Positions 34,478-63,000 of a stretch of DNA of 64,000 nucleotides are shown here, piece after piece (the first letter of the stretch is position 1; each line of letters opens with the position of its first letter). The notes under the pieces are model-generated. The model searched no databases and had not been told where the DNA came from. It was given only the letters and a program-made list of their open reading frames with translations. Both the position numbers and the translations under genes were made by a program. Origin of the DNA: Saccostrea cucullata (taxonomy: Eukaryota); assembly GCF_032062105.1 (NCBI RefSeq), contig NW_026918602.1, positions 1 through 64,000 of the forward strand, in the 5' to 3' direction.

Positions 34478-37400
34478 AGTAAGTCTTTTTCAGTGAATAT
34501 CAGTGAAAACTAACATTTATAAGCAAGGGGTCATCTTTTAAGTAAATTGAATTATTTAACTTTGCATAAAATATAGAACAAGCAAATCGTATTGTGTTAT
34601 TTTTGTATTTTATAATGTTTTCTTTACGTCGATATCTTTGCTAATTATCTAATAAACCCTTTATAAAGTTCATGTATAAGTGATTACTAATTGACACGTT
34701 GTTATGTTTTCATTTCAGTGGAACTTATCCCACCTCCACCGATGCCTGTTGCTGAGCGATCTTCACCTATGGAGTTTACAGAGTTCAATAATTAACTCAT
34801 ATTTTAAAAATATTAATTTGACGTATAGAGCTACTATATTCAATAATTCTCCTTCAAAGACTATCTTGAAAACATACTGTATCATGTCATTTTTATTTTC
34901 ATTCTTGATATGTACCGTAATATTCCGAAATCAGCAAAATTCATATGAATTTACTTTCAGAATTTGACAACTTAAATATGTCTTTATTATTTTTCGGTAG
35001 CATTGCGGATCTTTGTGATATAGATGAATCAGAATGCAGGCAGTCATTGCTTGATTTTGCATCAAAAGAGTGTTGCTATGGAACGAAACCAGCTTCAGAA
35101 ATGAGCATTATTCGCCATCAGACCGTAACCGCTTTTACAGTAAACTTTACATTTTGTTCATTATCGCACATTAGTGCAATTTCGGGAAATTATTTCTCTT
35201 CCAATAAACGTGACTGTAATGATACTTTTATTTTAGTATACCCTAGAAACATTTACAGAGGTTAGGCAGACTGGGCCGAATCACACGCCGTACATAGATG
35301 GACCTGTGGATGGTCCTGAGAATGGTGATCCGCCTCCTGTCTGGGATATTCCGTGTTTGCCACGTACTATGTTCCACTTTGATATTAAAACGATGGAACT
35401 TCCTCACACGGCAACAGTTGCTGTAATTGTGTTTGAGACTTACTCAGTATTCAGTCAGAAAACGTTCGATTTATTACAATTTAAAATACTTTGATTAACG
35501 TGTCTAAAAGCATATAATATTATGTCCTCCTTTTGACAGGTTTGTCATTTTTGTTCGGCAACAGGCAAAACTGTATGTACGGAATGCGATGGCAGAGGGA
35601 AGAAACAGTGTATATGTTGTGGAGGACTGGGACGAGTCTTCTACTATGATTCTTACAATCAATGCAATATGAGCCAAACGTGTATCGCCTGTTTCGGTTC
35701 TGGAAGAGTTATGTAAGCATACGATTTTTATTTCTAGGTACATTAGGTAATTGTATTTGAAATTTTATAAACACAAAAAGGTCGCAGAGACCTTCATTAA
35801 AGTAAAAAACTTAAAACCAATGTCTCATGGCGATTTTTCAAAAGAATCCTTTAACTTTTCAATGACTCTGAGTTCCGGGTAAATTAAAGACGTTTATTTG
35901 AACATGTATGTGATGAAGTCTTTAAATGAGTGAAAATTTCTTAAGTAGAATATCAAACAGCATACAGTAAATTAATATAAACATAATGAAGGGAAATTGT
36001 GCAAAATATTGATATTTGTTGCATAAAGATGTCTATTTGATGCTATTGCAATATTCTTGCATTGCTTTTCATTTGTATATTTTTCCAATACATAATGCAA
36101 CCAAGCAGTTTATTTTTTATGTAAAAGGTGTGCAAACTGTTTGGGCCAAGGAGAAATAATATGCACTGATTGTTGTGGAAATAAGAAAATAAAAAAGTAC
36201 ACAGAATTAAAGGTAACATTGTAAGTATTTTTTCGTGTTATTTTAATGTGACCCAGGATTATTTATCTAAATATAAAAAGAATGTCCTAACACCAACCTC
36301 TGAAAAGCTGTTCTTCATATATTTATGTTTCTTCTTTATATTTATCAGTAAAGATTCAAACCCGTTACTTATACCACTGTCCAAATGGCAAAAACTCCAC
36401 TTATAGATCTTAGTAACTTCACAATAGCTACATCGTTACATCGGTATGATTTAATTGCATTATACTCAGTATTAATTTTTAGGAATTAACTTTGGCTGTT
36501 GTCCTGTTATAATATATAATATTCAATAGACTCTATGAGTTTGACACCCTAAATGATATACCCGCTATTGTCAATATCATGACTTGCATCTCCTTTACAT
36601 ATCAATGAGACTCATTGTGACCCTTTCGTTCTAAGATTAATGTAGATCTTATTCTATTAATTCTGAACCTATGCATTCAATACTAATATATTTACCATAC
36701 AAGTATAACCCTTTTGATGAGATTGTCCATAATATATAATATCGACCGAGCATGAATTACGAGCTTCATATGCTTTTCTAAGAAATAGAAATATCCAATC
36801 TGATAAAAGGTCTACATTTATTATATGATTATACCCCACTTAAAAATGGTGGAATAGTATGATGGGGGTTTCCGTCGGCCTGTCTGCATGGCCTTCCGTA
36901 ACGCTATAGTGTACCTATATCCTTTCTGCAACTCCTCTTATATCGCCTTAAAAATTTTTTTTTTTTTAAACTTCACAGAATCTTTGTTACATAATGCAAT
37001 TTGGCACCCCCTTTTTTACTTTGGGACGAACACATATTTAGGGTTTCCCTTAGCAAAACGTGAACGCAACCATTCTTTCTACAATATTGATACAAACTAG
37101 AAGCAACTAAGAGCAACCATGGACCTCCAAAACATCAGATCGGGTACACATTTACTTTCACAGATCGTTTATTTAAATTACATATTACATATTGTTGTTC
37201 CATTGTGCACCTTATATATTTTACTTTTTGATCTGACACTTAATTTTGGTCGACCTTAAAAAGATATGGAGGCGGGGAATCATGAACACAATGCTCACAC
37301 TACCTCTTGTTTGAGCAGAGATAAGCGAGATAAAATTTGAAAGTAATGGAATAAAATTATAATTTTTTCAAATATATAGTGCATTGTAAAACTAGAAATT

Positions 37401-39532
37401 AAATCAAATCAGTCTGGTTGTATTTTTTTATTCTTATAAAGCTATATACGAAATTTGTTAATTGAAAAAAATCATTAATTTATTTTTTCAATTACTTGTA
37501 TTGATTAATTAAAGACATATTTTAATAAAAAGAAAAACCTTGACATTGTAAAGTCATAAGAAATATTATAGAACATCATAATTATAACTAGTAAGCACAT
37601 TCATCCAATTTTGTGTAACATTGCAGTGAAAATCATCTTGAAAAACAAATTGTCAATCGTTCTGACATACCGGATTACATTATCGACACAGAAGACGGAA
37701 AATTAGTGTTTGAGCAAACCGAAGTTCAAGTAATTATAAAATTTTATGGTCTTAAAATAGGGAATACAAAAGAAATATGTTTTAAACATGATCTTCATTA
37801 TGAAATTATATTTATGAAGATGTAATACACTTGCAGATATCTATTTAAAAATATTAAATTGGATCTATCAAGATGATCAATTTAAAGATAGCTTTACAAA
37901 ATATATTTTATTTTAAGATCAACCCAATCACGACCTACACTGTTCCTGAAGTCAACAGTACCTCAAGTCGAATCGTCAATGAACATAAGAACACCTTCCA
38001 CAACGAACGGGTTATAAAACAGGTATGCATATATTATGCAAGTTTATCTATACTATTATTCTAGGGTGTTATTTTAAAATGAGAGCTTATATTCAGCTCT
38101 TAATTTTTGTCGATTCTCTGTTGTTAACTTCTTGAAAAAAGGGTCTTTTTACAAATGTCGAGTTTGATGTCAAACTTTGCCATAAAACACGTTGAGGAAT
38201 ACATTCTGTTTAAAGTATGTCACTCGTCAGCTTTTTAGAAAAGTTTAGACAGATCCTCTCACATCAAAACTATTCATTATAGTTCATGTTTTATAACAAA
38301 TTTAAATTAAAAAATGTAAATTGTTCAACATTCAATGAAAAAACTGCTCAAAAATTCATAAAAAAGCAAGATTTATGAGGGACTTTTTCTTGTGAAGGAT
38401 TTTTAGAAGAAAATTCTGCAAATCTGCACATTTATTGTATTTAATATCTTGGACCTTTAGTCTTACGTACTTTTATTCAGATAATATTTTCCGATTAGTC
38501 TTACATATTTTTATTTAGATAATATTTTCCGATTTTTCGTTATGATATGCTCAGAATATTAAATAGATGTCACAATTTACATAATTAAGAACATATCATA
38601 CACCTTCCCTCGGTAAACTTTGCCGAGAAATGAAGATATATTAATGATGTCAAGATAAGATTGGCACCGTTTCTTGCCTAAAAATTGCATAATTTTACCA
38701 ATATTTCAAAATTTACATCACTCACTCCAACTTTTTCTTTAATAATTTAAACTACTCGATGTTTTTGACTGATCAGCATTAGGTCTTAAAAAGTTTGATA
38801 CAAGAAAATATTTCATTGCCTATTCAGATTTTTAATATCCCAAAAATGTTACTTTTTAGTGAAAAAAGGTCACACAATAATTTACGAGCATTGATTTGCA
38901 AGTTTTGTTCAATGATAAATATTATTTATCCTATTTTACGTAGAATAAGATTATATTTATTGCCATGGTTACATCTGATAAAATATGATAAAGGTTAAAG
39001 TGATTAACCAAAGAATTAAAATATAAGTGCAAAAAGGTCAACTTAATTTACCGTAGTTCAGTAAGATGCACATTGAACCCCTGTTTTCTCTGCGATTTTG
39101 CGTCATACTTTATGAGTATTTAATCAAAATATACTTCTCAAATATTTCTTGATATAACAAATTGCACGAGTGACATACCTTAAGCTCACTATGAAGTAGA
39201 TTTTTTTTTTGATTATGTCAAAATGGGCTGACAATTATAGGAAATGTTTGGAATTTATATCCCAATAAAATATCAAATGTCAAGTATAAGCCTTGGAAAT
39301 AATCTTGTTTCTCATTCTCTTTACTCAGAGGACACACCCTTTGTTTCTTTTTAATTGACACAATATCTAATGATATTTTTTAAAGAGACAACAATTGCAA
39401 GCTGTCCCTATAATAGAGGTTCACTATGCTTGGAAGAATATGAGTTCTCGTTACTGGATTTGTGGTTTGAGTAGAGAGGTTTATGCTCCAGATTATCCTC
39501 AGAAGTGCTGCTGTGGTTGTAACATTTTATAA
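34478..39532 (+). CDS. SSUH2: SSUH2-like protein copy 2, ~336 aa, lacks the long Pro/Gly N-terminus, ends CCCGCNIL
   Basis: Exons (34478), 34719-34782, 35001-35139, 35237-35422, 35540-35712, 36128-36220, 37627-37729, 37918-38022, 39386-39532. Phases match copy 1 and six exon lengths are identical (186/173/93/103/105/147); no stops. Start inferred as split A|TG. The donor at 34783 (GTTCAA) is weak. Confidence 0.85.
36828..37312 (+). mobile_element. Degenerate Helentron/HINE copy in an SSUH2 copy-2 intron
   Basis: TTATACCCCACTTAAAAATGG start, CGCAACTCCTC-like core, GGAGGCGGGG...CTCACACTACCTCTTGTT end. Confidence 0.6.
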
Positions 39533-41303: not shown

Positions 41304-41516
41304 AGAGGCTGGGTGGTTGTGGCATTTTTAGACTATTTTGATCTCCTTTAGTAGAAGAGCTCCATATAAAGATATAATAAAATGAGAAATTTCAAACTAA
41401 AATTTATGAAATTTTTCTTTGCCAAATGATAGTTGACAGCTTAAGATATCATATCCCAAAATTTAAGTTACATCTGGTGGTTAATAAGAAAATAATTTGT
41501 TGACCCCCTAGCCTCC
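41304..41516. mobile_element. Kolobok-type MITE
   Basis: AGAGGCTGGGTGG / CCCCTAGCCTCC imperfect TIRs with a TTAA TSD. Confidence 0.65.
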
Positions 41517-43355
41517 TTAAGCATGAATTTTTTTACTGGAATATACTTTTATATACTTATTGTTACCATTATTAACTAAGTAAATTTCCTGAAGAATTTT
41601 CCGTTTTAACAATCATGACGAGGAGCAGATGACGGGTGATATTAGTCGACAGGAGGTCTACATGGTACCTGATCCCACTTCGATCTGATGTTTAAGGAGA
41701 TCATTATTTCCTCTGTTACCGATTTGTATTGCATTTAATGGACTTTTGAGCTTGATTACAGTTCTATTTCTCCATTTTATTTACTTCTATATATGTATAC
41801 AGTTTATATATATGAATATAAATAAATATGCTACAAAAGTATTGACATCGAAATCTGACTATTGCTTAAGTTTTTGGATATTTTTTTCAGCTATAGAAAA
41901 GCTTATTAGAAACGCGAGGAATGTTTATAAAGCATTTTATTGTTTCTTTACAGTTATATTATACTGTAAAAGATGATAAAAATAGACTTGATTTATATTT
42001 TTGTCAAATTTTGAGAATTTCATTTTGTTTATTCTTTCAGAATTTATCGAAACGCATAAAAACTGTAAACTGTAAAACATTTGAAAGAATTTTCACATTT
42101 GCAAGTACCTTGATAATTATGTGAATTTTCATAAAACATAACCTATTGTGGAAAACAGAGAGATAACTCATTTATTTTGGTAACAATTGCGTTTTTTTTC
42201 TCTAGGGATCAAAGGAAAACGGAAAATTACCCCCACCCTACCCCGTAAAACAAAAAATCCTTTTTGGGTTTTATGAGTTGGTACTGCAAATGTATTATTA
42301 TATTTAGCATGTGCAATATTTCGCGGAAATATATTTTTGAACAAGTTAGCAAAGATATGGTTTAGCACAATTCTTAGTTATTATATATATATATATGTGT
42401 AAATGTGCAAGACATTTAGTGATGTACTACTTAAATTCTCAGAATGGCACTTATAAGAATACACAGCGGAATGTAGTACATCTACAGTGTTTCACAAATT
42501 TACATCAAAGCTTTTTGTTGTTTCATGGGGTTGGAAGAGCAGTAATATGCTAACAGCAAAAAAGCTGCAAACATGATCTTAATTATCAGTTTTGAATGAG
42601 ATTACAAATAAAACAATGTCTCTTTTCAGCTTTTTTGTGTGGAGTTTTACTGAATTTAAACATATGGAAATTTTTATGGATCAATTACTTATTTGCAGGC
42701 TATTTTGAAAATCTAGCGATTTTTAAGACCTGATGTCAACTTCAATGGATAAAAAATTAAATAACAACTCTCCTGAAAAGACTCGAAAATAAAAGTTTAT
42801 GGCACTTGTTTGAAAATTGATAATCAATTAGTAAAATCCACCTATGACTTAATTCTTTTGTTTGAGCGCCCCGTTAATTTTCAGGAGTGCAGAATTAAAT
42901 ATTACTTGAAAACGGTATTTCCTATGTTCATATTCTCCTTCCCGTGCCTCTACAGAGGAAAGAACTTTATTTTCACATAAAGAAGATGAAATTAATTTGC
43001 CACTACTGATATTCAAATCTGGTACTTATTTTCACCAAAGTAGTCGGGTACTAAAGTAAATAAACAGATAAATTTATAGAATTGAAAGGGCCTTTACAAG
43101 AATGCAAATTTCTGTAGCGTATTTTTAGCCTTCAATGTCCTTAAGGAAAACAATTGTTAACATTTAATCTAATTATGAAATAAAGTCATATTGACACTAA
43201 AGAGCCCTTTACATACATCGATGTAGCAACTGTTAAGGGCTGAAAATATATTCCTGAACTTCATGAAATATATTGACCAAATTGACCAAAATTTACCTCT
43301 CCAAATCTCAAAAATGATATTGATATATAAAACTGGAGGACATTCTTTTAACCAG

Positions 43356-43501
43356 AGACAACAGTTGCGTGCTGTTCCGGTGACTGAGGTCCACTTACGT
43401 AGGAGGACGTTAGTACACGCTACTGGATCTATGGTCTGGAGAGGAATGTCCACGCCCCGGACTATCCACAACAGTGCTGCTGGGGCTGTACCATTCTGTA
43501 A
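43356..43501 (+). pseudogene. Disabled orphan copy of the SSUH2 terminal exon, followed by a duplicated 3' UTR
   Basis: Near-identical to 21422-21568, but CAC TAC ACG TGG has become CAC TT ACG TAG (1-nt deletion plus TGG>TAG). No upstream SSUH2 exons recognised between the gap ending at 40131 and this exon. Confidence 0.85.
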
Positions 43502-46500
43502 ACGGCTCGCAAAAAATCCACTCAGGGGGGCTTAGTCATTCAAAACAAATGTTATCTTGTATTTTTTTTTTGTTTCTGAAGAACATATTTTAAACTGTAT
43601 TATAGTTTTGATTACCTACTTTTTTTAATTACTTTTTGAAAAACGTTTTCATACTGAAGTATTTACTTTTTGAATTCATGAATTAAAATGGTGAATTACC
43701 GTATGTGAACAATCACTTTGTTTGATGTGAAATTAAGGATGTTAAAAAAATAGCTTTTGTCATTCTATTGAGTGAGAGGATAACTTAACAATGTTGCTAA
43801 TTCCTTATTAACTTTATGAACAAGATCTAGATATTCGTGAGGATATAAAATGTAATTTAAATTACTAACCATGTCTCTTTCTTGTTGGTATGAAGGTCGT
43901 GTTCTATGTAAAATCCATATGTTCTGTTTTCACATCATCTCTATTTTACATCAGCACTATCAAGTTTAAATTAGGGGATTAAATTGATGTTATTTACCTA
44001 TATTACTGTATATTAATTATTATCAGAAGTTGCTCAAAGCACTGAAATAGCAATAAGTTAGTCTTAGAATATTTCATCACTAATATACTTGAGAGCAATA
44101 TTCTTATGAAATTTTTTAAAACTTATTTATCTGCACTTCACGAGATTATTATGAAACGCAATAATTTTAATTGATATTTTAAATTCTAATAAGTACTATA
44201 CTCATTAGAAAAAATATTTGAGATCAAACATTCAATGATTTTACGATTCATTTTAATTAGGTCAAGGAATTTTTTAAGTATACAAGTATATCTTTAAACT
44301 CATCATGTTGAAAAACTTACTAAAATTTTCGTTGACAATCTGGTACATGTATTCTTTGATAAGAATGTTTATTACCTGTGTTTATAAATTATACATATTT
44401 TACATTACCTAATCATAGTATGAAATGTTTTATTGAAGAGTATTGAAATACATACAGGTATATTTTAAAATAATTATACCTGTACCATTGATTCAGGAAA
44501 GTCCATATAATTAACAAGTATAAATATCTTTTGTTTCATATTATACTTTAACTGCTTCTTTATGAGTGCTTTCTTAATTTGTTATATTTCTTTGAATACG
44601 TGGTTTTTCTTATCTGAAATAAACACCTCCAAGCATTTCAATTTTCTGCATTCTTGTCCTTTCTTTTAAATTGCTTTATATTCCGTGAAGAAGATAGGTG
44701 CAGTTATACAGTTGTACTTGTATTTAAACAATCAGTCCAGTAAGTCAGTGATTAATATCTTAATAAATTTAGATACAGATGTTATTTTTTCCAGTTTGAA
44801 AATACTGCTTTTGTTTTCTAATTGAAGATTACATTTATCTGCTGTATTTCTATCAAATACTCAATCTGAACAATTTTCAAAATTGAAAATTAGTCATGTT
44901 AGTAATACGCTTATTCGGAATTAAATTTCAGGCTAATTTTAGGTCATTATTTTCACACTGAATTGTCTTCGGATTTTCCCGTTTTTTTCCAATCATGCCA
45001 AGTAACACATGGCATATGTGACAGGACCCCAGGGGATGCTCACTTCTCCATGGCACCTGATCCCACCTCTGATGTTTCCGATATCTGTGTTTGCTCTGCT
45101 CCTGATTTCTAATGTTTAAATGCAGATTTGAGATTGATTACTTTTCGTATCATCATATTTCATTGAAAAATGTTTGCTTATAAACATGAATGGAAAGGAC
45201 TAGCGCATTCTGGGGCAATTATATAAGATAGTTCTGTATATTAAGTAATTGTAAGTATCAATGGTTTGCAAACATTGTATATTCAAGATGATCTGCAGTT
45301 AAATTTAACATATTTTTCCACAATTAGTTTAGGAACGCACGTAAGGGTCGTTTAAAACCATATTTTCTATATGTTATTTATTCTATTTAAAAATATAAAA
45401 AGGATGATGAAGTCAACTTTTAAATTTAAAAGAAATTATTTTTTGAAATTTTCTGGATAACGATTGAGTTAAGGAGTAAATATTAAAGGAATTGGGAATA
45501 AACAAATTAATAAAAATGTATTCATTCGAATAAATATGAGGATGATTAATCGCCTTTTTTAACAGTCATACCTTATGCAAAGCGTTTACATACATGTTTT
45601 TCTTTTAAAACATGACTGTAACAAACCTTTGTATTTCTTATCTTTTAAATAGTATCAAGTTGTTCCAATGAAGATTCCATTCCAAAAATGCAAATATGGA
45701 GCAGAACAAACACGAATCTCTAAAACATCAGAGATCAGATGCCGTGGATGAGTAAGCATTCCTTTCATGTTCGAGCATAAAAAACAGAAATAAGCCCCAT
45801 CTCTGCAGGTGTTAAGGGTACATGTATATTGTGACATAAGTTCATTGTAAGGGAAGCTAGCGAAAGAAAAGTTGAAGTAATTTATCGTAAATTTTTTATA
45901 TAGGCTACCATAAACATTTTTTTAAAAAAAGGATGTGGATGATTCTGAGATATCGTTTATCTCAAATGCTTTGAGATATATTGATTTAGAGTATGAATAA
46001 AAGTAACAATGCTTAATTAATAATTGCTCGTCGGTATACTAGCTTCTAAATGTTAAGATGAAGGCCACAACAAGCGTTTTCTTCTTTGGGTAAATTTTGA
46101 ATAATATGAATAAGGTTTTGTACTAACCAGGCGAAACTGGTATCCCCGGAAATCTGACAAATTATTGGAAGACCTTATCTTCCAGAAGTTGGAAAATTTA
46201 TGAATTCTCAAAAGAAATGAAGTTGTTCATACCGACAGAAAAATATTGCCCAAATTCGGTTTACAAATTGGAGGTACATGTAACTATATGAAAAAAATCA
46301 TAATCTATAAACATATTCTTAAACAAAACTTAACTGAATTGGCATAGATTGTCTTAAGACAAGTATCCTCTTATAAGTTTTCTGACATCATAATAAATAG
46401 CAATTACTATACGTATTTGAAACTAAAGGAATGTTCAGTTATAAGACATCAATGATATTGTTGTTTTAAAAAGTGAAAACCATATTTGCCGTACTAAGAT

Positions 46501-47351
46501 TACAAACTCGTGATATATTTTTGAAATTGTATTTCTCTTTTAACACAGAATTAGGTCGGATTTTTTGTATAATTGTAGTTTGTTTCCTCAAACCACAAAT
46601 GAAACTCAAACATTTTAATGTGCATTTCTGTATGTATGTACGAAATATATTGAGATAGCGAACAGGTAAAAAGTCCATTAAGGACAGGTGACACCAACAT
46701 TTTTTTCTTTGGAGGAGACTTAATATCATAACAAAGGTATAGAAAAGTGGATAATTCTTTGCATTTTTTTTCTCCTTGGACTCCGAAAATGAAAAAAGAC
46801 TGTTATTGGTTAATATTTCAATAAATATCAAATATTGACAAATCACAATCATTAAAGGTTTACAGATGAAAACAAAATTCAAAATATGTTAGTTTGTTGC
46901 TTAAAGTGTAATATAAACTTTTAAAAAGTATACCAAGGCAGGTGAATTTTATGACGAAAAGCAAAATGGTTAAAACTTCAATTGGTTTTAATTTAATGGC
47001 GCTGGTCCACTAACTTTTTAATAACCCCTCGTATGTTATGTTATACGGCTATAATTATCAAAAAAGATATATGCAATCCAAAAAATGTCCTGATTAACCA
47101 AAAAAAAAAAAAAGAAAAAAAAACACCACCTGTTCAAGTGTTATGTTACGATTCGTAACAGATGAGACTAATTTTGTCTGTGAACTGTTCCTTTCCCGTA
47201 AATGGAACTTAAAATGTTAAAATGAAAACATTCATTTGCATTTTGCGGGCAACAAACATTATCATTTAATATATAAAAAAAAAAAATTTAAATGACAATA
47301 GAAAGAATCACGATATCTTCCTAGTCTACCAAGAACTTATCATTGGCTGTA

Positions 47352-49376
47352 TCAATTTTCTCCACGATTGTCTTCAACATTAAGTTCCATAAGATCCGAA
47401 TAAACGCCTTCAACGGTTTGCTCTTCATTTTTTTTATGCAAACTTTTTCGATATACTCGTATCTCATAGACAATGCACAGGATGAACATACATATCACTG
47501 CTGTCCCCACTGAAATGATGACAACTCTCTTTGAATGGTACATACTTGCAATTGGTAGATGGGAAATTGTGAAATTAGAAACGTCAATGGTTTTCCTTAC
47601 CGTTGTTTGGTGGTGTTGATAAACAGTAACTAAATGAGTAATGTATATTTAGGAAGTGAATGAACATCTTATTAATGTCACAACATTTAAGGTATAGTAC
47701 AAGGTAACAGCAAATCTAGGCACGTAGATGAGACTCTAAACGTCAATGCTTCATACTGAAGTGCACAGTAGTCAACTAGTAAGGTCAAATTAAAAGCACA
47801 ATTAATGTTAAAACACATATAGAAACTTATAGATATAAAAAATACCTTTATCTTTATTGGATTGTTTTATAAGTTCATGATTAAACCTTTATTCCTACTG
47901 TATTTAAGAGATAAATCGCATCTTAATGCATAAAGAATATTTTTTAGAGAAATGATTTGTATATCAGGAAAAAGAGCTGGTAAGTGTAATTTAAAAAAAG
48001 AAAGCTGTAATCACAGATATTTGTAATATGCATGTATTGCTGAGAATTCCAGCACATTATTTTTCGATAAAAACGCTTTGTCAACAATTTTGCCTGTCAA
48101 CCCTTGTATTTATTAAACGAGAGTCAGTTTACTCTTGATGCAATAAGGGTAAATTGTAACGTTTAGTTTGCTCTTGATGCATTAAGGGTAACTTGTTACA
48201 TTTTATCGATTCTTTATTGTATTATATGTGTCGGGAGATTTTAAAAGAAAATGATGATCATCTTACATAAAACAATTCTTCTTTTTAATTGACAAATTAA
48301 GTAGCCTTTAGGACAATGATATATCATGTGTTTGGAAATTTTAGCGAGAGGCAAATTTTTTTTATTTGTCCTTAATATTGGTATTTTATTTTCAGCGATT
48401 GTAAAAAGCCCACAAAAGAATTATATGAATAGTTATACGGAATTGTTTAAAAATTAATACAAATTGTTAAAAATGGTCCATTTAAATACTAGACTGAAAT
48501 GGATATTTCATATGCAATGTTTTGACAATATTTCAGTGTTACATACAGCCTGTATGGATATCTAATGTTTAATTTTTATTAATTGAGAAGAAGCCTATTT
48601 TGAATTAATATTTGAAATATCTAAGTAAAATGATCACCAGTAATGATTTCTACCTTTAATACATCCATATTTGGTGTCACATTCTTCAGCCACACAGTCA
48701 CAGGTCCCACCACACAATAAACCATACGATGGGTATTTACACCTTTTCGAGCAATTCGGTCCAAAACTCCCTAGCGAGCACTCTGTGCAGTAGAAAGTTT
48801 AATATGCCAGTGCTTTTCACCTCTAAGGAGGCAAGGGCAACAAAAAAAACCCACAAATATGGTATATATTAAGCTATGATATCATAATAACATATCAACA
48901 ATCATTTTGCAAAGAACAAAATCAAACATTTTAGTTTTAAATAAGTTTAGTTTTTTTTAAATATCTTTATATGGTGCTCTTCTTTTAAAGGAGATCAATG
49001 TACTAGAAGTCTGAAAATGGCCACAACCACCCACTGTTCTTAAATCTTTATATGCACAGAAATTTCCAAATGGAGTTTACTTAAAGCTAATGCATTCAAA
49101 TATTCTTTTCGAAAATCAGTTATACTTACCAACGCATGTTTCGCCAACCTGCTGATAATTTACATCACACTGATATGCACCATTACTACACCAACGAAAT
49201 TTTATTTTAGAAATAAAAATACATATACATGTACATGTAATACTGCAATTCGACAGTCATGCATATATGAATAATTTGTAGGTTTTTTGGAATACCTACC
49301 TTAATCTGTTTATCAAAAGACTTATCACAAAATAATCATATGTATTCAAAATATTGAAACAGAAAAGTTTCATCAT
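47352..49376 (-). CDS. Small single-pass membrane protein with an EGF-like (MEGF10/SCARF/CED-1-type) Cys-rich module, copy 1, ~179 aa
   Basis: Exons 49376-49300, 49185-49130, 48782-48654, 47629-47352 (540 nt, GT-AG, open). Sequence: MMKLFCFNIL..., CDVNYQQVGETCVECSLGSFGPNCSKRCKYPSYGLLCGGTCDCVAEECDTKYGC, Thr/Ser stalk, TM VVIISVGTAVICMFILCIVY, tail EGVYSDL. The signal peptide is atypical. Confidence 0.8.
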
Positions 49377-49650
49377 TAAATGAAAATCCCATGAAATTGA
49401 GTGATAAACTGTGAAGTAATGAAAGTTAAAAATTTGTCGGATTTTAATTAACCAAACAAGGAAACTTATGATATTAAAAATAACTTTGTCATAGACAGTA
49501 TTCTTTGCATTGTATTGGAAAATATTTTAGATATTGAGGAAAGAGGTGTGAATATTAGGTTTATCTGCTTTATCTTCAATTTGAATATTTATATCAATCA
49601 TTTTTATTTATTTATTACTTTTTTTTATGTATTTATTTATTTATTTATAG

Positions 49651-50268
49651 GTATTCCCAATAACATCGTACCCAATCGCTGAGATTAACAACAATTCTAT
49701 CAGGATCGTGAATTCTCACAAGGGAGCATTTCCAAATGAGAGAATGCTAAAACAGGTACTTTCCTCTATCATTCAGTAAATTTTGACAGGTGTTTTTATG
49801 ATGCCATCTCTCAAGGAATATAAATCTAAAACATAACATATTCTTCAGATCCTCCTTTACGTTTAATAATGCTTGTGCTGGAAATGAAGTTTTTGAAAAT
49901 TAAAGCTTATCAGTACATAAACCAAAACATGCTATTATGTTTATCCATAAATGAAGGATAACGACATTATAACCGTAAGAAAGATTCTTTGCAGTATCGT
50001 AGCACTCAAGTTAAAAAAAAATGCAATATTGATATTTTTGGATAATGATGATCAGTAGATTCTTCTAATTTGAAAAAGAAAATGACATACATCTGAGTCT
50101 GAAAGCATTTTTGATTAACAGAGACAACAGTTGCGTGCTGTTCCGGTGACTGAGGTCCACTATACGTGGGAGGACGTTAGTACACGTTACTGGATCTACG
50201 GTCTGGAGAGGAAGGTCCATGCCCCAGACTACCCACAACAGTGCTGCTGGGGCTGTACCATTCTGTAA
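49651..50268 (+). other. Intact orphan copy of the last two SSUH2 copy-1 exons (49651-49755, 50122-50268)
   Basis: Encodes exactly the same peptide as 20858-20962 plus 21422-21568, with splice sites intact. No preceding SSUH2 exons nearby; upstream of ~49600 the sequence is the 5' flank of the - strand EGF gene. Confidence 0.85.
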
Positions 50269-53200
50269 ACGGCTTGCAACAAAATCCACTCAGGGGGGCT
50301 TAGAATACCCAGTCATTCAAAACAAATGTTATCTTGTATTGTTTTTTTTTATTTTGTTGTTTCTGAAGAAAGTGTTTTAAACTAAGTTATAATTTTGATA
50401 TCCTACTTTTTTTTATTACTTCCTGAAAAACGTTTTAATACTGATGTTTTTTTTTTGAATTCATGAATTAAAATGGTGAATTACCTTATGTGGATTATCA
50501 CTCTGTTTGATGTGAAATTATGGATGTTAGAAAAAATATCTTTAGTCATTCTTTGAGTGAGAGAATGATCTAACAATGTTGCCAAATGAATACCTTATTA
50601 ACTTTAGGAATATGCTATTATAGACATTCGTGAGGATATATAATGTAATTCAATTTACTAACCGTGTCTCTTTCTTGTTGGTATGAAGGCTATGTTCTGC
50701 GTAAAATCCATTTGTTCTGTTTTCACATCATCTCTATTTTATATCAGCACCATCAAGTTTAAATTAGGTGATCAAATTGATGTTATTTATCTATACTACT
50801 GTATATGAATTATTATCAGAAGTTGCTCAAAACACTGAAATAGCAATAAGTTAGTCTCAGAATATTTCATCACTAATATACTTGAGAGCAATATACTTAT
50901 GAAATTTTTTAAAACTTATTTATCTGCACTTCAAGATATTATTATTGAAACGCAATAATTTTAATTGAGATTATAAATTTGAATAAATACTTTACTTATT
51001 AGAAAAAATATTTGAGATCAAACATTCAATTATTTTACGATTCATTTTAATTAGATCAAGGGATTTTTTTCAGTATACAAGTATATCTTTGAACTCATCA
51101 TGTTGAAATACTTAATATTAAAATTTTCGTTGACAATCGGGTACATGTATTCTTTAATAAGAATGTTTAGTGCCTGTGTTTACAAATTATACATATTTTA
51201 CATTACGTAATCGTATGAAATATTTTATTGAATGGTATTGAAAAACATACATGTATATTTTAATATAATTATACCTGTGCTATTGATTCAGAAAAATACA
51301 TATAATTGACAAGTACAAATATCTTTTGTTTCATATTATACTTTAACTGCTTCTTTGTGAGTGCTTTCTATATTTGTTATATTTCTTTAAATATTTGGTT
51401 TTTCCTATTTCAAATAAACATCTCCAAGCATTTCAATTTTTTGCATTCTTGTCCTTTCTTTTAAATTGTTTTATATTCCGGGAAGAAGATAAGTGCAGTT
51501 ATACAGTAGTACCTGTATTTAAAGAATCAGTCCAGCAAGTCAATAATTTATATCTTAACAAATTTAGATACAGATTATATTTTTTCAGTTTGCAGAATAT
51601 TGCTTTTGTTTTCTAATTGAAGATTACATTTATTGCTGTATATCTATCAAATACTCAATCTGAACAATTTTCAGAATTGAAAATTAGTCATGTTAGTAAT
51701 ATTATTTGGAACTAGTGTTACAGATGTTCCCCAAACGCTCCCCAACTCCCTCTTTTGTGCCTAATTCCTGTAAGACATTTTAAAAATATGATCCGTATTG
51801 AAGGATTTCATAAAAGAACTATAAAAGCTACAATGATATCAACCACACGTGCATGCATTCTCGTTTTCATAGTATTATAATGTACGAATCCATTATACCT
51901 ATTCATATTCTAAATTTCATCCCGTTTTGTTGAAAACTAAGAAAGTTATTGGCATTTAAAGTTTCAGCCAATTAGATTACAGCACATGTGCATGCGCATG
52001 CTTTCATGATAATTCTTATATACCATGCTGTAGATATTGTATGACCATGTTCAAAATTTCAAAATACTTTGTCAAAAGCAAGAAAGATACTGAGACTTTA
52101 GTTTCAGGCAATCAGAACGAAGCACACGTGCATGCGCATGAGATCTTGAGATTTTGACCAAATTAATAAAAAAATGTATTCATTAAAATAAATATGTAGG
52201 GTGATTAATCGAATTTTTTTAACATTCGGACCTTATGCAAAGCGTTTACATACATGTACTAGTATCTCCTTTAAAATATAACTGTAACGTAAACTTCTGT
52301 GTTTCTTATATTTTAAATGACATCAAGTTGTTCTAATTTACAGTCTGTTAAGCTTCATGTTATAAAATACAGATATAAAAACAGTAATCAAACTCGAGAT
52401 CATTCAAAAATGCAAATATGGAGCAGAACAAAACGAAACTCTAAAACATCATATCTGAGATGCCATGGAGGAATGAGCATTCCTTGTCATGTTCGAGGGA
52501 AAAGAAAAACAAACTAAAAATCCATATAATAATTCAGTAAGTAAATACATGTAATAGTCTAACAAATTGTATGAAAAAGTCAGCATTCAACTTAATGATA
52601 GATTGTATTTGCATACAGAGTCACTGAATCGACTTTGGAACTTGCAAAATGATGATTTTAAAACGAGACTGTTGATATTCTTTAGTCATTTATTAACTTG
52701 CAATTGTTTTCAATAGCTTGCATCGTATAAGAAATTGCTTTTGGGAGACACAAGCCCCATCTATGCAGGTGTTAAGGGTATATTGAGACTTAAGAACATT
52801 GTAAGGGAAACTAGGAAAAGAAAAGTTGAAGTAATTTATAATGCATTTTGTATATAGGCTACCATAGACATTTCTTTCTTGAAAAAAAAAAGATTTGGAG
52901 GATTCAGTGATATCGTTTATTTCAAATTCTCTGGGATATATTGATTTAGAGTATGAATGAAAGTAACAATTGTTAATTATTAATTGCTCGTCGGTATACT
53001 AGTATCTAAATGTTAAGATGAAGGTCACAACAAGCGTTTTCTTCTTTGGATAAATTTTGCAAAATATGAATAAGGTCTTGTACTAACCAAGCACAGCTGG
53101 TATCCACGGGAATTTCGACAGATTATGGGAAGACCATATCTTCCAGAAGTTGGAAAATTTATGAATTCTCAAAAGAAATGAAGTTGTTCCTACCGACAGA

Positions 53201-54173
53201 AAAATATTGCCAAATAAGGCTCACACCTGAAGGTAAAAATCATCATTTATTACTATTATTATTTATTCTTAAACAAACTTTACTGAATTGGCATAGCTTG
53301 TATTAAAACTAGTACCCTCTTTTAAGTTTTCTGACATCATAATAAATGGCAATTACAATACATATTTGAAAGTAAGGAATGTTTAGTTATAAGGCATCAA
53401 TAATATTGTTGTTTTAAAAAGTGAAAACCATATTTGCCGGACTAAGATTGCAAACTCGTGATATATTTGAACTTGTATTTCTCTTTTAACGCAAAATTAG
53501 GTCGGATTTATTTTTTTTTTTTCCAAAAAAATAAAACTCATTAAAATAATGTGCATTTTTATATGTATATTTGAAATATATCGAGAAAATGAACAGTATT
53601 CCTTGGACTTGGAAAATGAAAATGACTTGAAAAATATTAGTTATTGTTTCAATAAAAATATGGAAAAATCACACTCAGTAGAGGTTTACAGATGAAAAAA
53701 AATTTCAGAATATGTTAGCTTGGTGCTAAAAGTGTACAATAATATAATATATTTTTCAAAAATATGCCAAGCCAGGTGAATATTATGAGGAAAAGCAAAA
53801 TGGAAGAAACCTCAATCGGTTTTAATTTCATGGCGCTAGTCCACTTACTTTTTGATAACCCCTCATATGTTATATTATACAGCTATAGTTATCAAAAAAG
53901 ATAAATGCAATCCAAAAAAATGTCCTGATTAAAAAACACACCTGTTTAAGTGTTGCGAGTCGTAACAGATGAGACTAATTTGCCTATGAACTGCTCCTTT
54001 TCCGTAAAAGGAATTTTAAATGTTAAAATGAAAACATTCCTTTGCAATTGCAGGCAACAAGCATTTTCATTTAATATATAAAACATTTTTTTTAAAAATG
54101 ACAACAGAAAAACCACAGTAAGTTCCTATTCTAGTAAGAATGAACTCTTCATTGGCAGTCTCAATTTTCTCCA

Positions 54174-57100
54174 CTATATATTATCTTCAACATTAACTTC
54201 AATAAGATCCGCATAAACGCCTTCAACGGTTTGCTCTTCATTTGACATGTCATTTCTATGCAAATATTTTCGATATACTCGCATCTCATAGACAATACAT
54301 AAGATGACCATACATATCACTACTGTCCCGACTGAAATGATGACAAATCTCTTTGAATGGTCTATATTTGCAATTGGTAGATGAGAAATTGTGAAGTTAG
54401 AATCTTCAATGGTTTTCCTTAGCGTTGTTTGGTGGTGTTGAGAGACAGAAACTAAATGAGTGATGTATATTTAGAAAGAGATTGAACAGCTTCTTAATGT
54501 ATCAACATTCATGGTATAGTACAAGATAATAGCAAATCCAAGCACATAGATGAGACTCTAAACGTCAATGCTTCATATTGCACAGTTGTCAGCTAGGTAG
54601 TAAGATCAAATTAAAATTATAATTCATGTTTTTAAAAACACATAGAAACTTATAGATAAACACAGGACCAGCAACACAAAATTCCTTTATTTTCAATGGA
54701 TTGTTTTATGATTGGAACTTAATTTCTTAATCTGTATTTCAGAGATTATACGCATATAAATATATCTATAGATATTTTTTTAAGAGAAATGATTTGTATA
54801 TAAAAGAGTTGGAACTTAAAGTTAAATGAAAACCCAATGTTGTAAACACAGATACATGTAATACGCTGAATACCTATTGCTGAAAATTCAAGCTTAGTGC
54901 GCCATTATTTTTCGATAAAAACGCTTTGTCCACGATTTTGCCTGGTAACCCTTGTATTCAATAAAGGAGAGTTAGTTTGCTCCTGATGCAATAAGGGTAA
55001 CTTAAGGGGAGACAGGGCACCTGTCACATGACTAAAAAGACATATTACGTCATAATGATATACATGTTAAACGTTGTTAAAATCAACAGTTCTTGTGTAA
55101 TTTTATTCTAAATTCTAAAATTGTTTTTTAAACTTTAATTAGAAATTTTATTCACAAAATTTTTAAAGATCTTGCTATTCAATCCACACATTTGTTTCTC
55201 TTTACCCTGCAGTTTGACGTTGACGTCAAACGTAGTGTTTGAATTTTGAGTGCAGCGAATCAAGTACACACACCCGCCATGATCACTTTTATTTCATAAT
55301 AAACAGGTCACAGTCAATGTATCGTGATAAATTTCTGAAGCAGATTTTTTAAATCAATATTTTTTCGTTTTTAGTAGCAGAGATTCTCTCTATGTAGATA
55401 ATTTTGAATATTTGTGTTTTCGTGTGACGTCACAATTGATTACCCGCCCTCGGAAAATACAAACGTGAAGCGTTTTTATCATGCTTATGTCTAATTCAAC
55501 GATGTCCTGTGCGATATTTATTTTTATATTTATGCAGTAAATAATTACGATGAAGGACTGACATTCAATCGTAAATTTAGAAATATTTATTGACAGAATT
55601 TTTTCCCAATGAGGTTTTTGTCGTTGAAGCTGCCTTGAAAATGCAGAAATTATCCCACCCAAATGCTATATAGAATTAAAACAATTGCTTTCAGATAATT
55701 TAAACACTATGAAAATTCTGAAATACTTCAGTATTTGAGTATATAGTGTTATCTATAATATTTATCGTTTGTGCGTAAAAATTCGATGATGGACTCCGTT
55801 ATGGGCCCGTAAACATGTATTAATACTCCATACAAACTCTACACAGGGCGGTAGTAAAACAGAAATCCAATGACAGGACCGTTTCAAAATGTTAAGTACA
55901 TATTAAATTAGTAATATAAAAAATACGAAAAAAATTCATTGACAGGATTTTTTTCAGCTAAAGGTCCTGTTCCTCCTGAAACATTGTATCGATTCTTGAT
56001 TGTATCATACGTGTTCGTGAGAATTTAAAAGAAAATGATGATCATCTTACATAAGTAGTTTTATACATGAACTATTATCATTTTATACATAAGAAATGAT
56101 TAACTTCTAAAAGTTTTTGAGTACCTGTAATAAAATGACATCCAGTCACGTGATTGCAATAAGATTGCGAACAATTGCATGTTGCAGCACATAAATGTCC
56201 ATAATATGGATAGGGACATGGAGTACAGTTTGACTGAAAATAACCATTAGGACAAGCTTAAAAAGAAAAAAAAACAATTCTTGTTATTTTCAGATCGCAA
56301 ATTAGGTAGCCTTTAGGATAATGTTATTTTCAATGTTCATATGGATTTTTTTTTCATATTAAAAGTGAGATCTACATACCAGTGAAAACAAAAAAATAAA
56401 CTAAAATTACCTTCACAAGTATTATTATACCCCCCGCTTGTTATACGGGAGGGTATATAGTAATCGTTAATATCCACTGTCCGTCCAGTAAAACTAAATA
56501 GTCCGTCCGTCGTCCGTCTGTCTGTCCGTAAAATGTTACGCTTATTAAACACAAAATACCACATCTCTTATCCGTAACTCCTCTCATACCACTGAATGAA
56601 AGTTTTGATGAAACTTTCAAAAAATCTTTATTACAAATCACTTCCTATTTTACTTTTTGATATTAGACACATATTTTGGGTTTCCCGGCCACAGGAAAAC
56701 ATGGACTTTTTCACCACTTATTTACTTTCCGATGATAAGAGCAACATCTTTGATTAATATCCTCAAGAACTCTACAGTTAAACAAATGAATAAATAAAAT
56801 TCATACATTCCAGTAATATTCTATTTAAAATTAAAAAAAAAATGTTAAACACAAAATACATAAGCACATCTTACCCTACAGAACATCCATGTGATTCTAA
56901 AAAGTTGAAAAAATTGAATTGATATAAGTAATGATTAAAAAAATGATTTTAAAAATTGTTACAAATTGTTTCTTCCTTAATTTTTTTTTATTTTTGATAT
57001 TAGATTGTTAAAATCATGTACGGCGGGGCCACATAGGGAATCCAAGTTTTACATAGATATACACTATATTTGAAAAATTTTTAAGAATCTTATTTCAAGA

Positions 57101-57801
57101 ATGTTACACAAAGCCTGTATGAATATTTACTGTGTACATTCTGTGCATTGTGACCTGATGCAGAATCCTATATTAAAATAATTTGCAAAATATCTGAGAA
57201 AAATGTTTATTGGTTTCTACATTTAATACATCCAGATTTGCTATTACATTCTTCAGGTAAACAGTCACAAGTCCCACCACACAATAAACCATATGTTGGA
57301 TATTTACACTTTTGCGAGCAATTCTGTCCAAAACTCCCTGGCGGGCACTCTGTGTAGTAGAAAGTTTCACATGCCAATGTTTTTCATCTTTTTAGAAGGC
57401 TGGGGATCAGCAAATCCTTTTATGGAGCTCTTCTTTTAAAGGAGATCAATATAGTCTAAAAATGGCCACAACCACTCAGCCCTCTTAAATCTTTATAAGC
57501 ACAGAAATTTCCAAACGGAGTTAACTAGAGAGCAAATGCATTCAAATATTCTTTTCTAAAATCATCTATACCTACTAATACATGTTTCGCCAACCTGCTG
57601 ATAATCTACGTCACACTCATATGCACCATTACTAAACCAACGACAGATTTTTTCAATATAATTACATATAGTAATGCATTTGGACTGTTATATATGAAGA
57701 AATGTACGTTTTTGGCATACCTACCTTAATCTGTTTATCAAAAGACTAATCACAAAATAATTATATGTTTCCAAAATATTGAAATAGAAACGTCTCAACA
57801 T
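54174..57801 (-). CDS. Small single-pass EGF-like membrane protein, copy 2, ~179 aa
   Basis: Exons 57801-57725, 57631-57576, 57349-57221, 54451-54174, the same lengths as copy 1. Sequence: CPPGSFGQNCSQKCKYPTYGLLCGGTCDCLPEECNSKSGC, TM FVIISVGTVVICMVILCIVY, tail EGVYADL. A 4-nt insertion near the end gives an earlier TAG. Confidence 0.75.
55006..55976. mobile_element. Kolobok-type non-autonomous element in an intron of EGF-TM copy 2
   Basis: TTAA|GGGGAGACAGG...CCTGTTCCTCC|TGAA. The equivalent site in unit A (~48190) is empty. Confidence 0.7.
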
Positions 57802-58834
57802 ATTTGCGAATACCAGGACAAATTATTGATAAACTGTGATGAATTGAAAGTTAAATTTGTCGGATTTTGATTTACCAAACAAGGAAACTTATGGTATTAA
57901 AAATAAGTTTGTCATTAAAAGGACTTTTTGCAGTAATGGCAATTTTTTTTTTAAATATTGAGGAAGCAGGTGTGAATATTGAATTTATTTGTTGCATTTT
58001 CAATATGAATATCAACCTCTTTCACCCCTTCTCCAGAAAGTGTTTAGTTGTAAAGACAAAACGAAATATTTCAAAACATAAACGTTTGAAAGTATCACTG
58101 TTGCCTTCAAGAAAGAGTAAAAAAATCTTCCTTAGCCAAATATTAGGTATTAAATACTTCTATGATTTTAAAATAAGCAATAGATCTTTATTTCAATTTA
58201 CTATCCCTCGAAACAGAGTTGGAGGGGGTATAATAATGGGATTGTGAATGGGGGGTTGTACTTTTCCCTTGTGTGTAGCTGAGATATGATCTCCTCCTAC
58301 TATAAGTCATGTTTTTTGTGCTTAATAGCGTTTGCAAACTACGAAAGCCTATATAGCGTTTGCAAATTACGAAAGCCTATTGAGCTAAACAAATATTTTT
58401 TTAACCTACGAAAATGAGCTCAATGGGTTTTCGTTGCAGACATATTAGAACGTAAAATTAATGTGTATTTCTTTAAGTGTCGATGTTTTCTCCTTCTATT
58501 TTTATATTTAAAAAAACGAACGAATTTAAAAGAAAATACTTGAACATTTCCTGTTTCAATATGATGCTTATCAATTTTTGTTACATCATTTCGCACAAGT
58601 ATTATCGTTTATTTTTTTTTTTACACTTCCTCAATTTGTTAAATAAGAGAAGAAAACTCATTTGATTGTGAGTTCATTTAAGCAGTGAAGATAACGAACA
58701 ATGATTAATCTGATAAATTTTTTAATACCATTTACGAGGGATGTTTGAAACGTTTTTGGACCATGGACCTCTGATTTTGAATACTGTTCATTATCTCAAT
58801 ATATTTCATGTCATATATTTTTATGTCATATATT

Positions 58835-60065: not shown

Positions 60066-63000
60066 AGTAAGTCTTCCATCTTTTTTTTACTCAAAATCTT
60101 TGAAAATCCATAAGATATCTCACAAAAAATTCCACAAAATTTTAAAAGTCTTTTACCAATTTAACATATTTAAAATTTTCTACTAATATTTCAGTGGCTT
60201 TAATACCCCCTCCTCCTTTTCCAACTCATCAGGAACCACAAACTGTACAATCTGAGGCCATGAAGTTTGAAAAGTTTGCATAAATTTTATTTTGTAATTT
60301 ATTTAATGAAAATTAAGAACAATCAAACTCCTTAAACAATTAATGGAAAAAAATATATGTTCATAAATGCCTTTAAAATTAAATTCTTTTGGAGTATCTA
60401 AAGTATTCCCTCTTTTTTCAGCATTGATAACCTTGATAAGGCGGCATGTAAGGAGGCTATGTTCGACTATGCTGCTGAAAGCTGTTGTTATGAATCCAAC
60501 GCAGTAAAAGAAATGACCATCACAAACATTAATGGTTTAACTGCTTATCATGTAAGGACATATATGTCATATATTTTCTAAATCTTTATGTAAAGTAGGT
60601 TTGAATAATAGTTGTTAAGATATAATTGTATCAAGAGTTACAAATACAATATATGCTTTTTCAGTATACATTAGAAACTTTTACTGAAACTCGGAAAACG
60701 GAATCCAAGCGTGTGCCGCACCGTGGAGGCCGAATTGATGGACCCGAAAACGGCCCTTCGCTCTCACCATGGGATGTGCTTTGTAAGGCAGACAAAACAT
60801 TCCATAATGAAGAAAAGAAAATGAAAATTCCTCATACAGAATATGTCCGAGTAAGTTTTCTCAGCATTCAAGGAAATTATGAAATTAAGCTTATAATTTT
60901 TAAAACATAAATAACAAATTTAGAAGAATTTTAGGTAAAAATAACTATCCGTAGGAAAAAAATTGTATTGCACTTTTTTACGTTGTGACCAAAGAAACAG
61001 CGTCTTAATTAGTTGTAGAATCCTTTAACAATCTTTCTATTAAAAAATCCTCCCTTTTCTTATAGCCATGCAACAGATGTATGGGACTTGGTAATATCCA
61101 GTGTTTGGGATGTCGGGGTTCTGGTATGGAGGACTGTTCTTGCCGTAAATGGTCAAACAATCGGGAAACCGACAGACTATTGGGAAGCAATGCTAGAGAC
61201 AATTGTCCTTCATGTCATTTACGAATCTCCAAGTAGGGAGGATAATTTTGTGTTAAATTATGTNNNNNNNNNNNNNNNNNNNNNNNNNNNNNNNNNNNNN
61301 NNNNNNNNNNNNNNNNNNNNNNNNNNNNNNNNNNNNNNNNNNNNNNNNNNNNNNNNNNNNNNNNNNNNNNNNNNNNNNNNNNNNNNNNNNNNNNNNNNNN
61401 NNNNNNNNNNNNNNGATCAGAATAGTACATGACGCTTAAAAAGACCCCTTTCAGATGGGGATGAGCTCTCGATTCATTTTTCATGTTTTTTGCTACTATT
61501 TATTTTAGATGTGGTAAATGTTCCGGTAAGGGCAGAGCATCATGTACTGAATGTGAAGGATCCGGAAACCTAAAGACATACACGGAACTCACGGTCAAAT
61601 TGTAAGTGTTTTGAATGTTTCCTTAGTACCATTAAACGTGTAGATAACGAGAAAATTATTTAATCTCATAAGTCCACAGAAGCAATACAAATTGGAAGCA
61701 GATCAGAGACTTCTAAAACATTAGGTGGGATGGTGCACAATTTTTTTAATTAAGAAAAATCTAAGAAAAAAACCTTTTTTTTCAGAATAAGCATCATTTG
61801 TTATATATTCATTCTCATGTGATAACTTAAATGATGTTTTCCAGAGTAAGAGTTGAAATGTTATAAGCATTTGTATTGATTATAAATGTTTATTTTTTTA
61901 AGTAAGTGGTAAATTTTAACCTAAAAGAAAGGAGAAGATAGGTTAATACCCCTTTCAGGCCTCTGATTTGGGGTGTCTTTTAGAATGATGAAACAGTTTT
62001 TAAATAAAAACCTGTTATCAGCCCTGCTACAAAATGAGTATTGGAATACAAATAGGTCACAAAGGGATAAGAAAATATGCCCATTTTCGAATTTTCACAT
62101 TTTTATGCAAATTTTCATGGATTTTACAGGACATGTTGTTTCAGAAAAATAGAACACAAACTTGCCTTTCTACCAAATTTATGTATTTCATACACTAGTA
62201 TCAGATGCATTTTATGTATAAAAATCTCAGATAGGCAAGCTTGTGCTCTATATTTGCCAAAGAGAAAAGTATCTCAAGTATGACGAAATTCACAACAAAA
62301 CTGAGAAAATTCGAGAAAATTTCCTACTTCTGCACCCTCTTGTGGCCACCATGCAAGATTTGAATCAAAATTAGTGCTGGTTTTAAAACAAACATCATTT
62401 TATGCTCTTAACTACAGTCAATCACAATTTTAACATTGTGCTGGTTTTTACATCAAATAACAAATGGATAAGTATCCAGGATAGTCCGTTACCATACCTT
62501 GTCCTTTTATATTTAATTTTAAGGAATATACATCGTACAATTATCATTAGTTTTGTAAATTCATGAGGCGCTGTAATTTTGTTAATCTCCATGATATATA
62601 CAAATACTTCTTGGCATATGTACATTTGTACTTTGATAATTAGGCTGTTTTTGGAGAACGGAAATACTCAATTAAGGACAAAGACCAGCAGGGTTGTATT
62701 ATTATATTGTAAACTCTTATGCCCGATTCTTTGCATGGAACGATAGAAAAATAAATCTTTATTAAAAAAAATAGATATTTTTTAAACTAAATTTTAGAAT
62801 CACCAATTGTGTCGTTAAGAAGTTTGTCTTGAATTATGCAAAAATTCAGAATTTTATTCATTTATTATCTACATGTACAATTGTATTTACATTTTACTTT
62901 GCATTGTGCATGAGATTAAAACACCTTTTTATCAGATCTTGTACTAGAAATACAAAAGGGACACAAAAATATGTTTTAACCCACGAGCCAGCTTCACTGA

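What the first reader, a model, noticed from the sequence alone, without database searches (positions are those of the whole stretch)
49651..50268. Promoterless SSUH2 tail differing from copy 1 only at synonymous sites
Seen: 9 substitutions in 252 coding nt versus copy 1, all silent (CCG>CCA twice, ATT>ATC, GTC>GTG, TCC>TCT, TTC>TTT, TAC>TAT, CGA>CGT, TAT>TAC), with splice sites intact, whereas the sister fragment at 43356 has a frameshift and a stop. Its intron resembles copy 1 but its 3' UTR resembles the 43.5-kb copy, so it is a mosaic. Inference: either a functional alternative 3' cassette (the phase-0 acceptor fits donors at 20563 or 37729, giving a swapped 3' UTR or a copy-2/copy-1 chimeric protein) or a recent conversion/recombination from a functional allele. 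An uncollapsed haplotype is the mundane alternative.
Basis: partly seen in the sequence, partly recalled or inferred. Interest (0 to 1): 0.7.

Follow-up and report, generated by a model that had tools for sequence, protein, structure and literature searches.

The report
Stranded tail of oyster SSUH2 allele
A promoterless two-exon piece of an oyster SSUH2 gene shares most of its silent letters and its 3' end with a longer spliced message from another oyster, so it is likely the stranded end of a second working version of the same gene rather than a new splicing option, an ordinary event in oysters.

Summary
In detail: exons 49651-49755 and 50122-50268 differ from copy 1 at 9 of 252 bases, all silent (chance 1e-6 to 2e-5), with intact splice sites. 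The piece starts at a tandem-duplication junction (49588|49605) and switches from copy-1-like (3%) to 14% diverged near 50362. Public RNA contigs explain it. In one oyster sample a single spliced contig joins copy-1-type exons 6-8 to exons carrying up to 8 of the 9 letters (6 listed, 2 by count) and to this tail's own 3' UTR (2.3% different, against 12% for copy 1). That contig's upstream exons differ from copy 1 just as much (6 of 196), so it comes from another working version of the whole gene. The silent-only pattern is therefore inherited from a working donor and does not show that the piece works at 49.6 kb. Most likely it was stranded by unequal recombination; an assembly haplotype switch cannot be excluded because no DNA reads were available. 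No support for a copy-2 chimera. One oddity remains: silent sites differ far more than the intron between them. No earlier scan note on this was found.

The parts
15686..21568 (+). SSUH2-like copy 1, 11 coding exons, 401 aa, intact
   Evidence: Exon model with GT/AG at every junction, identical to P0014; three of its last introns are skipped in RNA contigs
20858..21568 (+). Copy 1's own last two exons (20858-20962, 21422-21568)
34719..39532 (+). SSUH2-like copy 2 (older paralogue; the 8 exons modelled are open and include its own last two exons; first exon not located)
   Evidence: 67% identity to copy 1 in exon 5
43348..43501 (+). Broken last-exon fragment (frameshift and stop); no detectable upstream intron or exon homology
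   Evidence: four shuffle tests for upstream homology gave z from -1.1 to 1.4
43348..49588 (+). First unit (X) of an old tandem duplication: broken exon, UTR and flank
   Evidence: Collinear with 50115-58012 at about 78-89% identity with large indels
49589..49604 (.). Head-to-tail duplication junction: the end of X joins a point 46 nt upstream of the penultimate exon; AT-rich, no long homology
49651..49755 (+). Stranded penultimate exon, 5 silent differences from copy 1
49756..50121 (+). Intron, 2.5% from copy 1, lacking a 96-nt stretch present in copy 1
50122..50268 (+). Stranded last exon, 4 silent differences from copy 1
50269..51540 (+). 3' UTR: copy-1-like to about 50362, then 14% from copy 1; matched at 2.3% by an expressed contig of sample S1 as far as 51232
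50115..58012 (+). Second unit (X') of the tandem duplication
60196..64000 (+). SSUH2-like copy 3 (the 7 exons modelled from 60422 are open; ends at 64004, just past the window)

Best explanation
The piece at 49605-51540 carries the silent letters and 3' UTR of a second working version of SSUH2 copy 1, and it was likely left without a promoter when unequal recombination placed that version's last two exons into the second unit of an older tandem duplication. Shown: the duplication junction at 49588|49605, the mosaic break near 50362, and a spliced contig in another oyster that runs from exon 6 through these letters into this UTR. Inferred sequence of events: (1) the last two exons plus flank were duplicated in tandem; (2) a crossover between copy 1's tail and the duplicate, just after the stop codon, made a short haplotype with copy 1's coding exons and the duplicate's UTR, which stayed functional and gathered only silent changes; (3) a later crossover or conversion returned that working tail to a long haplotype. 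The silent-only pattern would then be inherited, and the piece itself is likely not used.
For: X1 record of 1451 nt (depth 18.7) lies on copy 1 exons 7, 8, 9 and 10, with an exon-6 loose end, and on 50117-51232 with 26 other letters in 1115; copy 1 would give 134 and the 43.5-kb copy 101 over that interval. Fragment letters listed in S1: 5 of 9 in X1 and 6 of 9 in X2; 2 more fit the per-piece count of 5; only 50226 is private to the fragment. S1's exons 7-8 differ from copy 1 at 6/196, like its last two exons at 8/252. All 16 codon changes tested are silent: the nine of the fragment and seven more listed in the runs. Two versions within X5/X6 also differ at 3 listed silent sites in a 184-nt contig, so such distances are usual between working versions of this gene. 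No in-place selection is needed: 2.2 replacement changes would be expected on the fragment's own branch and 0 are seen, P=0.11. Polymorphic segmental duplications are reported as pervasive in Ostrea edulis (10.1101/2025.06.24.661118, abstract read).
Against: The RNA support is one sample (X1 and X2 are both S1) and comes from assembled contigs, which can join alleles. S1's genomic arrangement is unknown, so the short haplotype is inferred. The return crossover must fall in or before the first ~55 nt of homology, a small target. Silent sites (9/54) differ far more than the intron (9/363; p=1e-4), which simple allelic origin does not explain and which exceeds published oyster allele diversity (pi-s 0.006 in O. 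edulis, PMC3564993 passages; heterozygosity 2.6-3.3% in Crassostrea, PMC10546077 passages). If the whole 2.3% divergence from S1 lay on the fragment's branch, zero replacements would have P=0.011.
Confidence: 0.5

Rival explanations
1. Assembly haplotype switch: the animal was heterozygous, one chromosome held an older decayed tail at this place and the other held the working second version, and the assembler or polisher switched between them at the shared exon-intron stretch.
For: The assembly is 1.17 Gb in 23,869 contigs, larger than I recall for oyster haploid genomes (recalled, not from a call). Haplotigs inflate oyster assemblies (10.1101/2022.08.29.505626, one abstract passage). A phase switch gives exactly the sequence seen.
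Against: No second contig was found for copy 1's 5' exons, copy 3 or the junction (lower bounds). The junction at 49588|49605 has no long homology, and X and X' differ by about 8-20% over their alignable blocks, so the duplication itself is probably real biology.
Confidence: 0.25
2. Recent sister gene: a full-length second copy of copy 1 once sat between copies 2 and 3, it is intact and expressed in S1, and its 5' part has been deleted in this haplotype (reciprocal loss).
For: S1's message differs from copy 1 by about 3% along all exons seen. Silent divergence (17%) equals distal UTR divergence (14%; p=0.55), as expected for paralogues.
Against: The S1 runs showed no copy-1-type tail on the copy 1 stretch (2 and 3 records laid). 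The named cluster members listed (11 of 37 carry a name) give one 401-402 aa SSUH2 of this type per oyster species, apart from re-annotations and shorter Magallana gigas entries. The near-identical intron argues for allelic or converted origin.
Confidence: 0.13
3. Working alternative 3' cassette: copy 1's exon 8 (donor 20563) splices 29 kb to 49651, giving the same protein with a different 3' UTR; or copy 2's donor 37729 does so, giving a chimera.
For: Phase and splice sites fit. There is no replacement change. X5 and X6 each show one 1019-nt 5' contig but two versions of the exon 9-10 joint.
Against: It requires skipping copy 1's intact last exons and AATAAA signals and reading through copy 2. 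S1 shows only the fragment-type tail, on upstream exons that differ from this window's copy 1. Eight of the nine letters are accounted for by a donor. The two X5/X6 versions both keep copy 1 letters at 20914, 20917 and 20923 and may simply be alleles.
Confidence: 0.12

Closest known systems
SSUH2 homolog family (P0014, named 'protein SSUH2 homolog [Saccostrea cucullata]' by its source; P0001, Saccostrea echinata)
   Same: The copy 1 model is identical to P0014; the 83-residue tail matches P0014 83/83 and P0001 82/83.
   Different: The piece holds only the last two exons, with no upstream exons, start codon or cysteine-rich region.
Partial tandem gene duplication followed by non-allelic homologous recombination or gene conversion (general mechanism, from my own knowledge)
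   Same: Head-to-tail junction, two diverged flank units, and an abrupt identity break near 50362.
   Different: Here the donor appears to be another working allele or lineage version found in a different animal; the order of events is inferred.
Polymorphic segmental duplications of oysters (10.1101/2025.06.24.661118, abstract read)
   Same: A duplicated segment holding coding sequence that probably varies between individuals.
   Different: Copy-number variation at this locus was not measured; that paper concerns Ostrea edulis.
Alternative last exons made by exon duplication (general kind, from my own knowledge)
   Same: A duplicated in-frame terminal exon pair with intact splice sites downstream of a gene.
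   Different: The protein would be identical, a whole paralogue lies in between, and no sample laid here showed both tails in use.

Membership tests
SSUH2 homolog | Sequence identity to named SSUH2 proteins | tested here: met
   Copy 1 exon 5 is 95% identical to P0001; the copy 1 model equals P0014
SSUH2 homolog | Cysteine-rich DnaJ-like central region (feature recalled) | tested here: inconclusive
   PF00684 at E=2e-4, below its cut-off, on copy 1 exon 19511-19681; 0 families for the fragment's two exons. The region is absent from the fragment.
Alternative terminal-exon cassette | Intact, in-phase splice sites and open frame | tested here: met
Alternative terminal-exon cassette | Both tails joined to the same upstream exons in one individual | tested here: inconclusive
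   The S1 runs show only the fragment-type tail; X5/X6 show two versions, neither of fragment type; contigs drop rare forms
Alternative terminal-exon cassette | Purifying selection acting on the cassette in its present place | tested here: inconclusive
   Up to 8 of 9 letters are shared with an expressed version; 0 replacements against 2.2 expected, P=0.11
Partial tandem duplicate refreshed by recombination or conversion | Head-to-tail junction and duplicated flank | tested here: met
Partial tandem duplicate refreshed by recombination or conversion | Abrupt change of relationship along the copy | tested here: met
   3.1% to 14.0% after 50362, 0 of 2000 permutations as strong
Partial tandem duplicate refreshed by recombination or conversion | A working donor with the same letters | tested here: met
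   Spliced contigs of sample S1; one sample only
False duplication (haplotig or phase switch) | Half read depth or no spanning genomic reads | not testable with these tools
   All four runs laid proved to be spliced RNA; no genomic reads
False duplication (haplotig or phase switch) | The other haplotype present as a separate contig | tested here: not met
   No such contig in G000 searches; lower bounds
Processed pseudogene | Introns removed | tested here: not met
   Intron 49756-50121 is present

The most novel reading that the evidence does not exclude
Oyster SSUH2 keeps two interchangeable 3' ends with the same protein but 3' UTRs 14% apart; short haplotypes hard-wire one, while long haplotypes carry both and choose between them by a 29-kb splice over a neighbouring paralogue, changing regulation without changing the protein.
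Probability: 0.1. Interest if true: 0.55.

Novelty: new member of a known kind. Interest (0 to 1): 0.22.

Why it matters
Little, biologically: SSUH2 function in oysters is not clarified by this. It is a useful caution that a silent-only duplicate can look selected because it was recently taken from a working allele. It also shows two strongly diverged 3' UTRs expressed on the same conserved protein in different oysters. Only if long reads showed both tails used in one animal would it become a real case of UTR switching by long-range splicing.

Tried and rejected
No RNA holder was listed as such and no genomic DNA run turned up; four of the six listed runs were laid (X3 and X4 were not). A joint from 37729 to 49651 is not among the 15 of 34 joints shown, and copy 2's exons had almost no cover there, so this is no evidence either way. 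A protein search with a copy 2 exon returned 1 hit of 7 candidates (P0001) and no copy 2 or chimeric protein (weak). A decayed penultimate exon or intron upstream of 43348 was not found (4 tests, z at most 1.4). Remnants of copy 2 inside X or X' were not found; the matches were repeats or a 60% stretch that overlaps a dispersed repeat. I hoped to use C18788 and C20852 as an allele control for silent against intron divergence, but they are separate paralogues, not haplotigs. Processed pseudogene rejected (intron present). Paper searches for SSUH2 with oyster (5 listed) and for SSUH2 function (10 of 3,376 listed) showed nothing on this locus by title and abstract start; searches gave nothing used. 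Earlier scan notes near this place: none.

Full report
Observation. The nine silent codon differences, the intact splice sites and the broken sister fragment are all as described. With about 53.5 silent and 195.5 replacement sites, nine of nine silent has a neutral probability of 1e-6 to 2e-5, so these letters were shaped by purifying selection somewhere. The question is where.

Setting. The window holds a tandem array of SSUH2-like genes on the + strand: copy 1 (15686-21568, 11 exons, identical to P0014, which its source names a Saccostrea SSUH2 homolog), copy 2 (34719-39532) and copy 3 (to 64004), with a fourth copy at 65.4-68.4 kb of the same contig. Between copies 2 and 3 lie two collinear units, 43348-49588 and 50115-58012, about 78-89% identical with large indels. 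The end of the first unit joins a point 46 nt upstream of the penultimate exon with no long homology: a head-to-tail duplication junction. Against copy 1 the piece is 3.1% different up to about 50362 and 14.0% beyond (0 of 2000 permutations as strong); beyond that point it is closer to the 43.5-kb copy (9.3%). Searches of G000 found no second contig for the fragment, copy 1's 5' part, copy 3 or the junction (lower bounds).

Expression in other animals. Six runs were listed and four were laid. All four have contigs that skip the introns exactly at GT..AG, so they are spliced RNA whatever their guessed label. In X1 one 1451-nt contig lies on copy 1's exons 7, 8, 9 and 10 at consecutive record positions, with a loose end matching exon 6. 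A record of the same length and depth lies on 50117-51232 with 26 other letters and 10 gap letters; I take it as the same contig. Copy 1 would give 134 mismatches there and the 43.5-kb copy 101. X2, from the same sample S1, has a matching 542-nt contig. Fragment letters are listed at 5 of the 9 sites in X1 and 6 of 9 in X2. Two more (20866 and 20938, near piece ends, where the tool lists no rows) fit the count of five other letters in that exon. Site 21526/50226 keeps the copy 1 letter in both. So the fragment's exons and UTR are the normal 3' end of an expressed SSUH2 message in that oyster.

Allele or long splice? S1's exons 7 and 8 differ from copy 1 at 6 of 196 bases, the same rate as its last two exons (8 of 252; p=1.0). 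All 16 codon changes tested are silent. X5 and X6 (second study) are a third type: copy 1 letters at 20914, 20917 and 20923, a copy-1-type 10-nt UTR insertion, four letters shared with the 43.5-kb fragment, and a loose end implying one amino-acid change in exon 6, so probably another species. They hold two versions of the exon 9-10 joint that differ at 3 listed silent sites in 184 nt. About 3% silent difference is thus the usual distance between working versions of this gene. The fragment needs no selection in its present place: if half of its 2.3% distance from S1 arose without constraint, 2.2 replacements are expected and none is seen (P=0.11; P=0.011 if all of it did).

Mechanism. Shown: the junction, the mosaic break and the expressed donor type. 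Inferred: an old tandem duplication of the last two exons and flank; a crossover just after the stop that gave a short working haplotype with copy 1's coding exons and the duplicate's UTR; and a later crossover or conversion that put this working tail back on a long haplotype (0.5). A phase switch during assembly gives the same sequence (0.25) and cannot be excluded without genomic reads. A recent sister gene truncated here but whole in S1 (0.13) and a true alternative cassette (0.12) are weaker. That the letters come from a working gene I put at about 0.9.

Against my reading. The RNA evidence is one sample and rests on assembled contigs, with output tables cut (375 rows, 19 joints and 1560 pieces not shown; 14 pieces). 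Silent sites differ at 9 of 54 but the intron between them at 9 of 363 (p=1e-4). GC at third positions is 0.55 against 0.29 in the intron, and oyster mutation is reported as GC-to-AT biased (PMC7674689, abstract only), but that accounts for perhaps twofold; conversion of the intron is the other candidate. The silent distance is well above published oyster allele diversity (PMC3564993 and PMC10546077, passages), so the versions may be deep lineages or cryptic species rather than ordinary alleles.

Comparison and verdict. This is a partial tandem duplicate of an SSUH2 homolog with a recombinant history, a known kind of event; polymorphic duplications are reported as pervasive in oysters (10.1101/2025.06.24.661118, abstract; its supplements were not seen), and haplotigs are a known problem in oyster assemblies (10.1101/2022.08.29.505626, one passage). 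A search for SSUH2 with oyster listed 5 papers, none on this locus by title and abstract start. Interest is low: 0.22.

Noticed in passing
window 49651-50268 against 20858-21568: Silent sites differ at 17% while the intron between them differs at 2.5% (p=1e-4); similarly high silent rates appear in exons 7-8 and between the two X5/X6 versions, with three letters seen at 19921 and 21487. Not explained.
   Followed up: partly
window 20899-21541 (runs X5, X6): Both samples have one 1019-nt 5' contig but the same two 184-nt versions of the exon 9-10 joint: alleles, pooled animals or two tails.
   Followed up: no
window 43356-43520: The broken fragment shares four letters (copy 1 positions 21487, 21499, 21575 and a deletion at 21580) with the expressed X5/X6 type, probably ancestral states.
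   Followed up: partly
L010 (contig 65461-68438); L016-L021; L014-L015: A fourth SSUH2-like gene follows copy 3; two more lie in tandem on C20852 and one on C18788, so at least seven SSUH2-like genes are in this assembly.
   Followed up: partly
window 21143-21238: A 96-nt stretch in copy 1's last intron is absent from the fragment and matches the ends of unrelated contigs in X5 and X6, likely a repeat insertion.
   Followed up: partly
window 21554-21565, 39518-39529, 63990-64000: Copies 1, 2 and 3 end in CTIL, CNIL and CDIL, which resemble a prenylation (CaaX) signal (motif recalled, not tested).
   Followed up: no
window 33167-34003 against 52380-53124 and 45824-46167: A same-strand match of about 60% between the region upstream of copy 2 and the duplicated flanks; it overlaps a dispersed repeat.
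   Followed up: partly
window 18000-18100 and 15035-15112: Short palindromic elements; the first has many copies across the genome on both strands (MITE-like).
   Followed up: no
L016-L020 (C20852 about 623900-641300 and 658400-663800); window 6661-7262: Arrays of a roughly 165-bp tandem unit in and between the C20852 paralogues, and a 134-bp-period repeat in the window.
   Followed up: no
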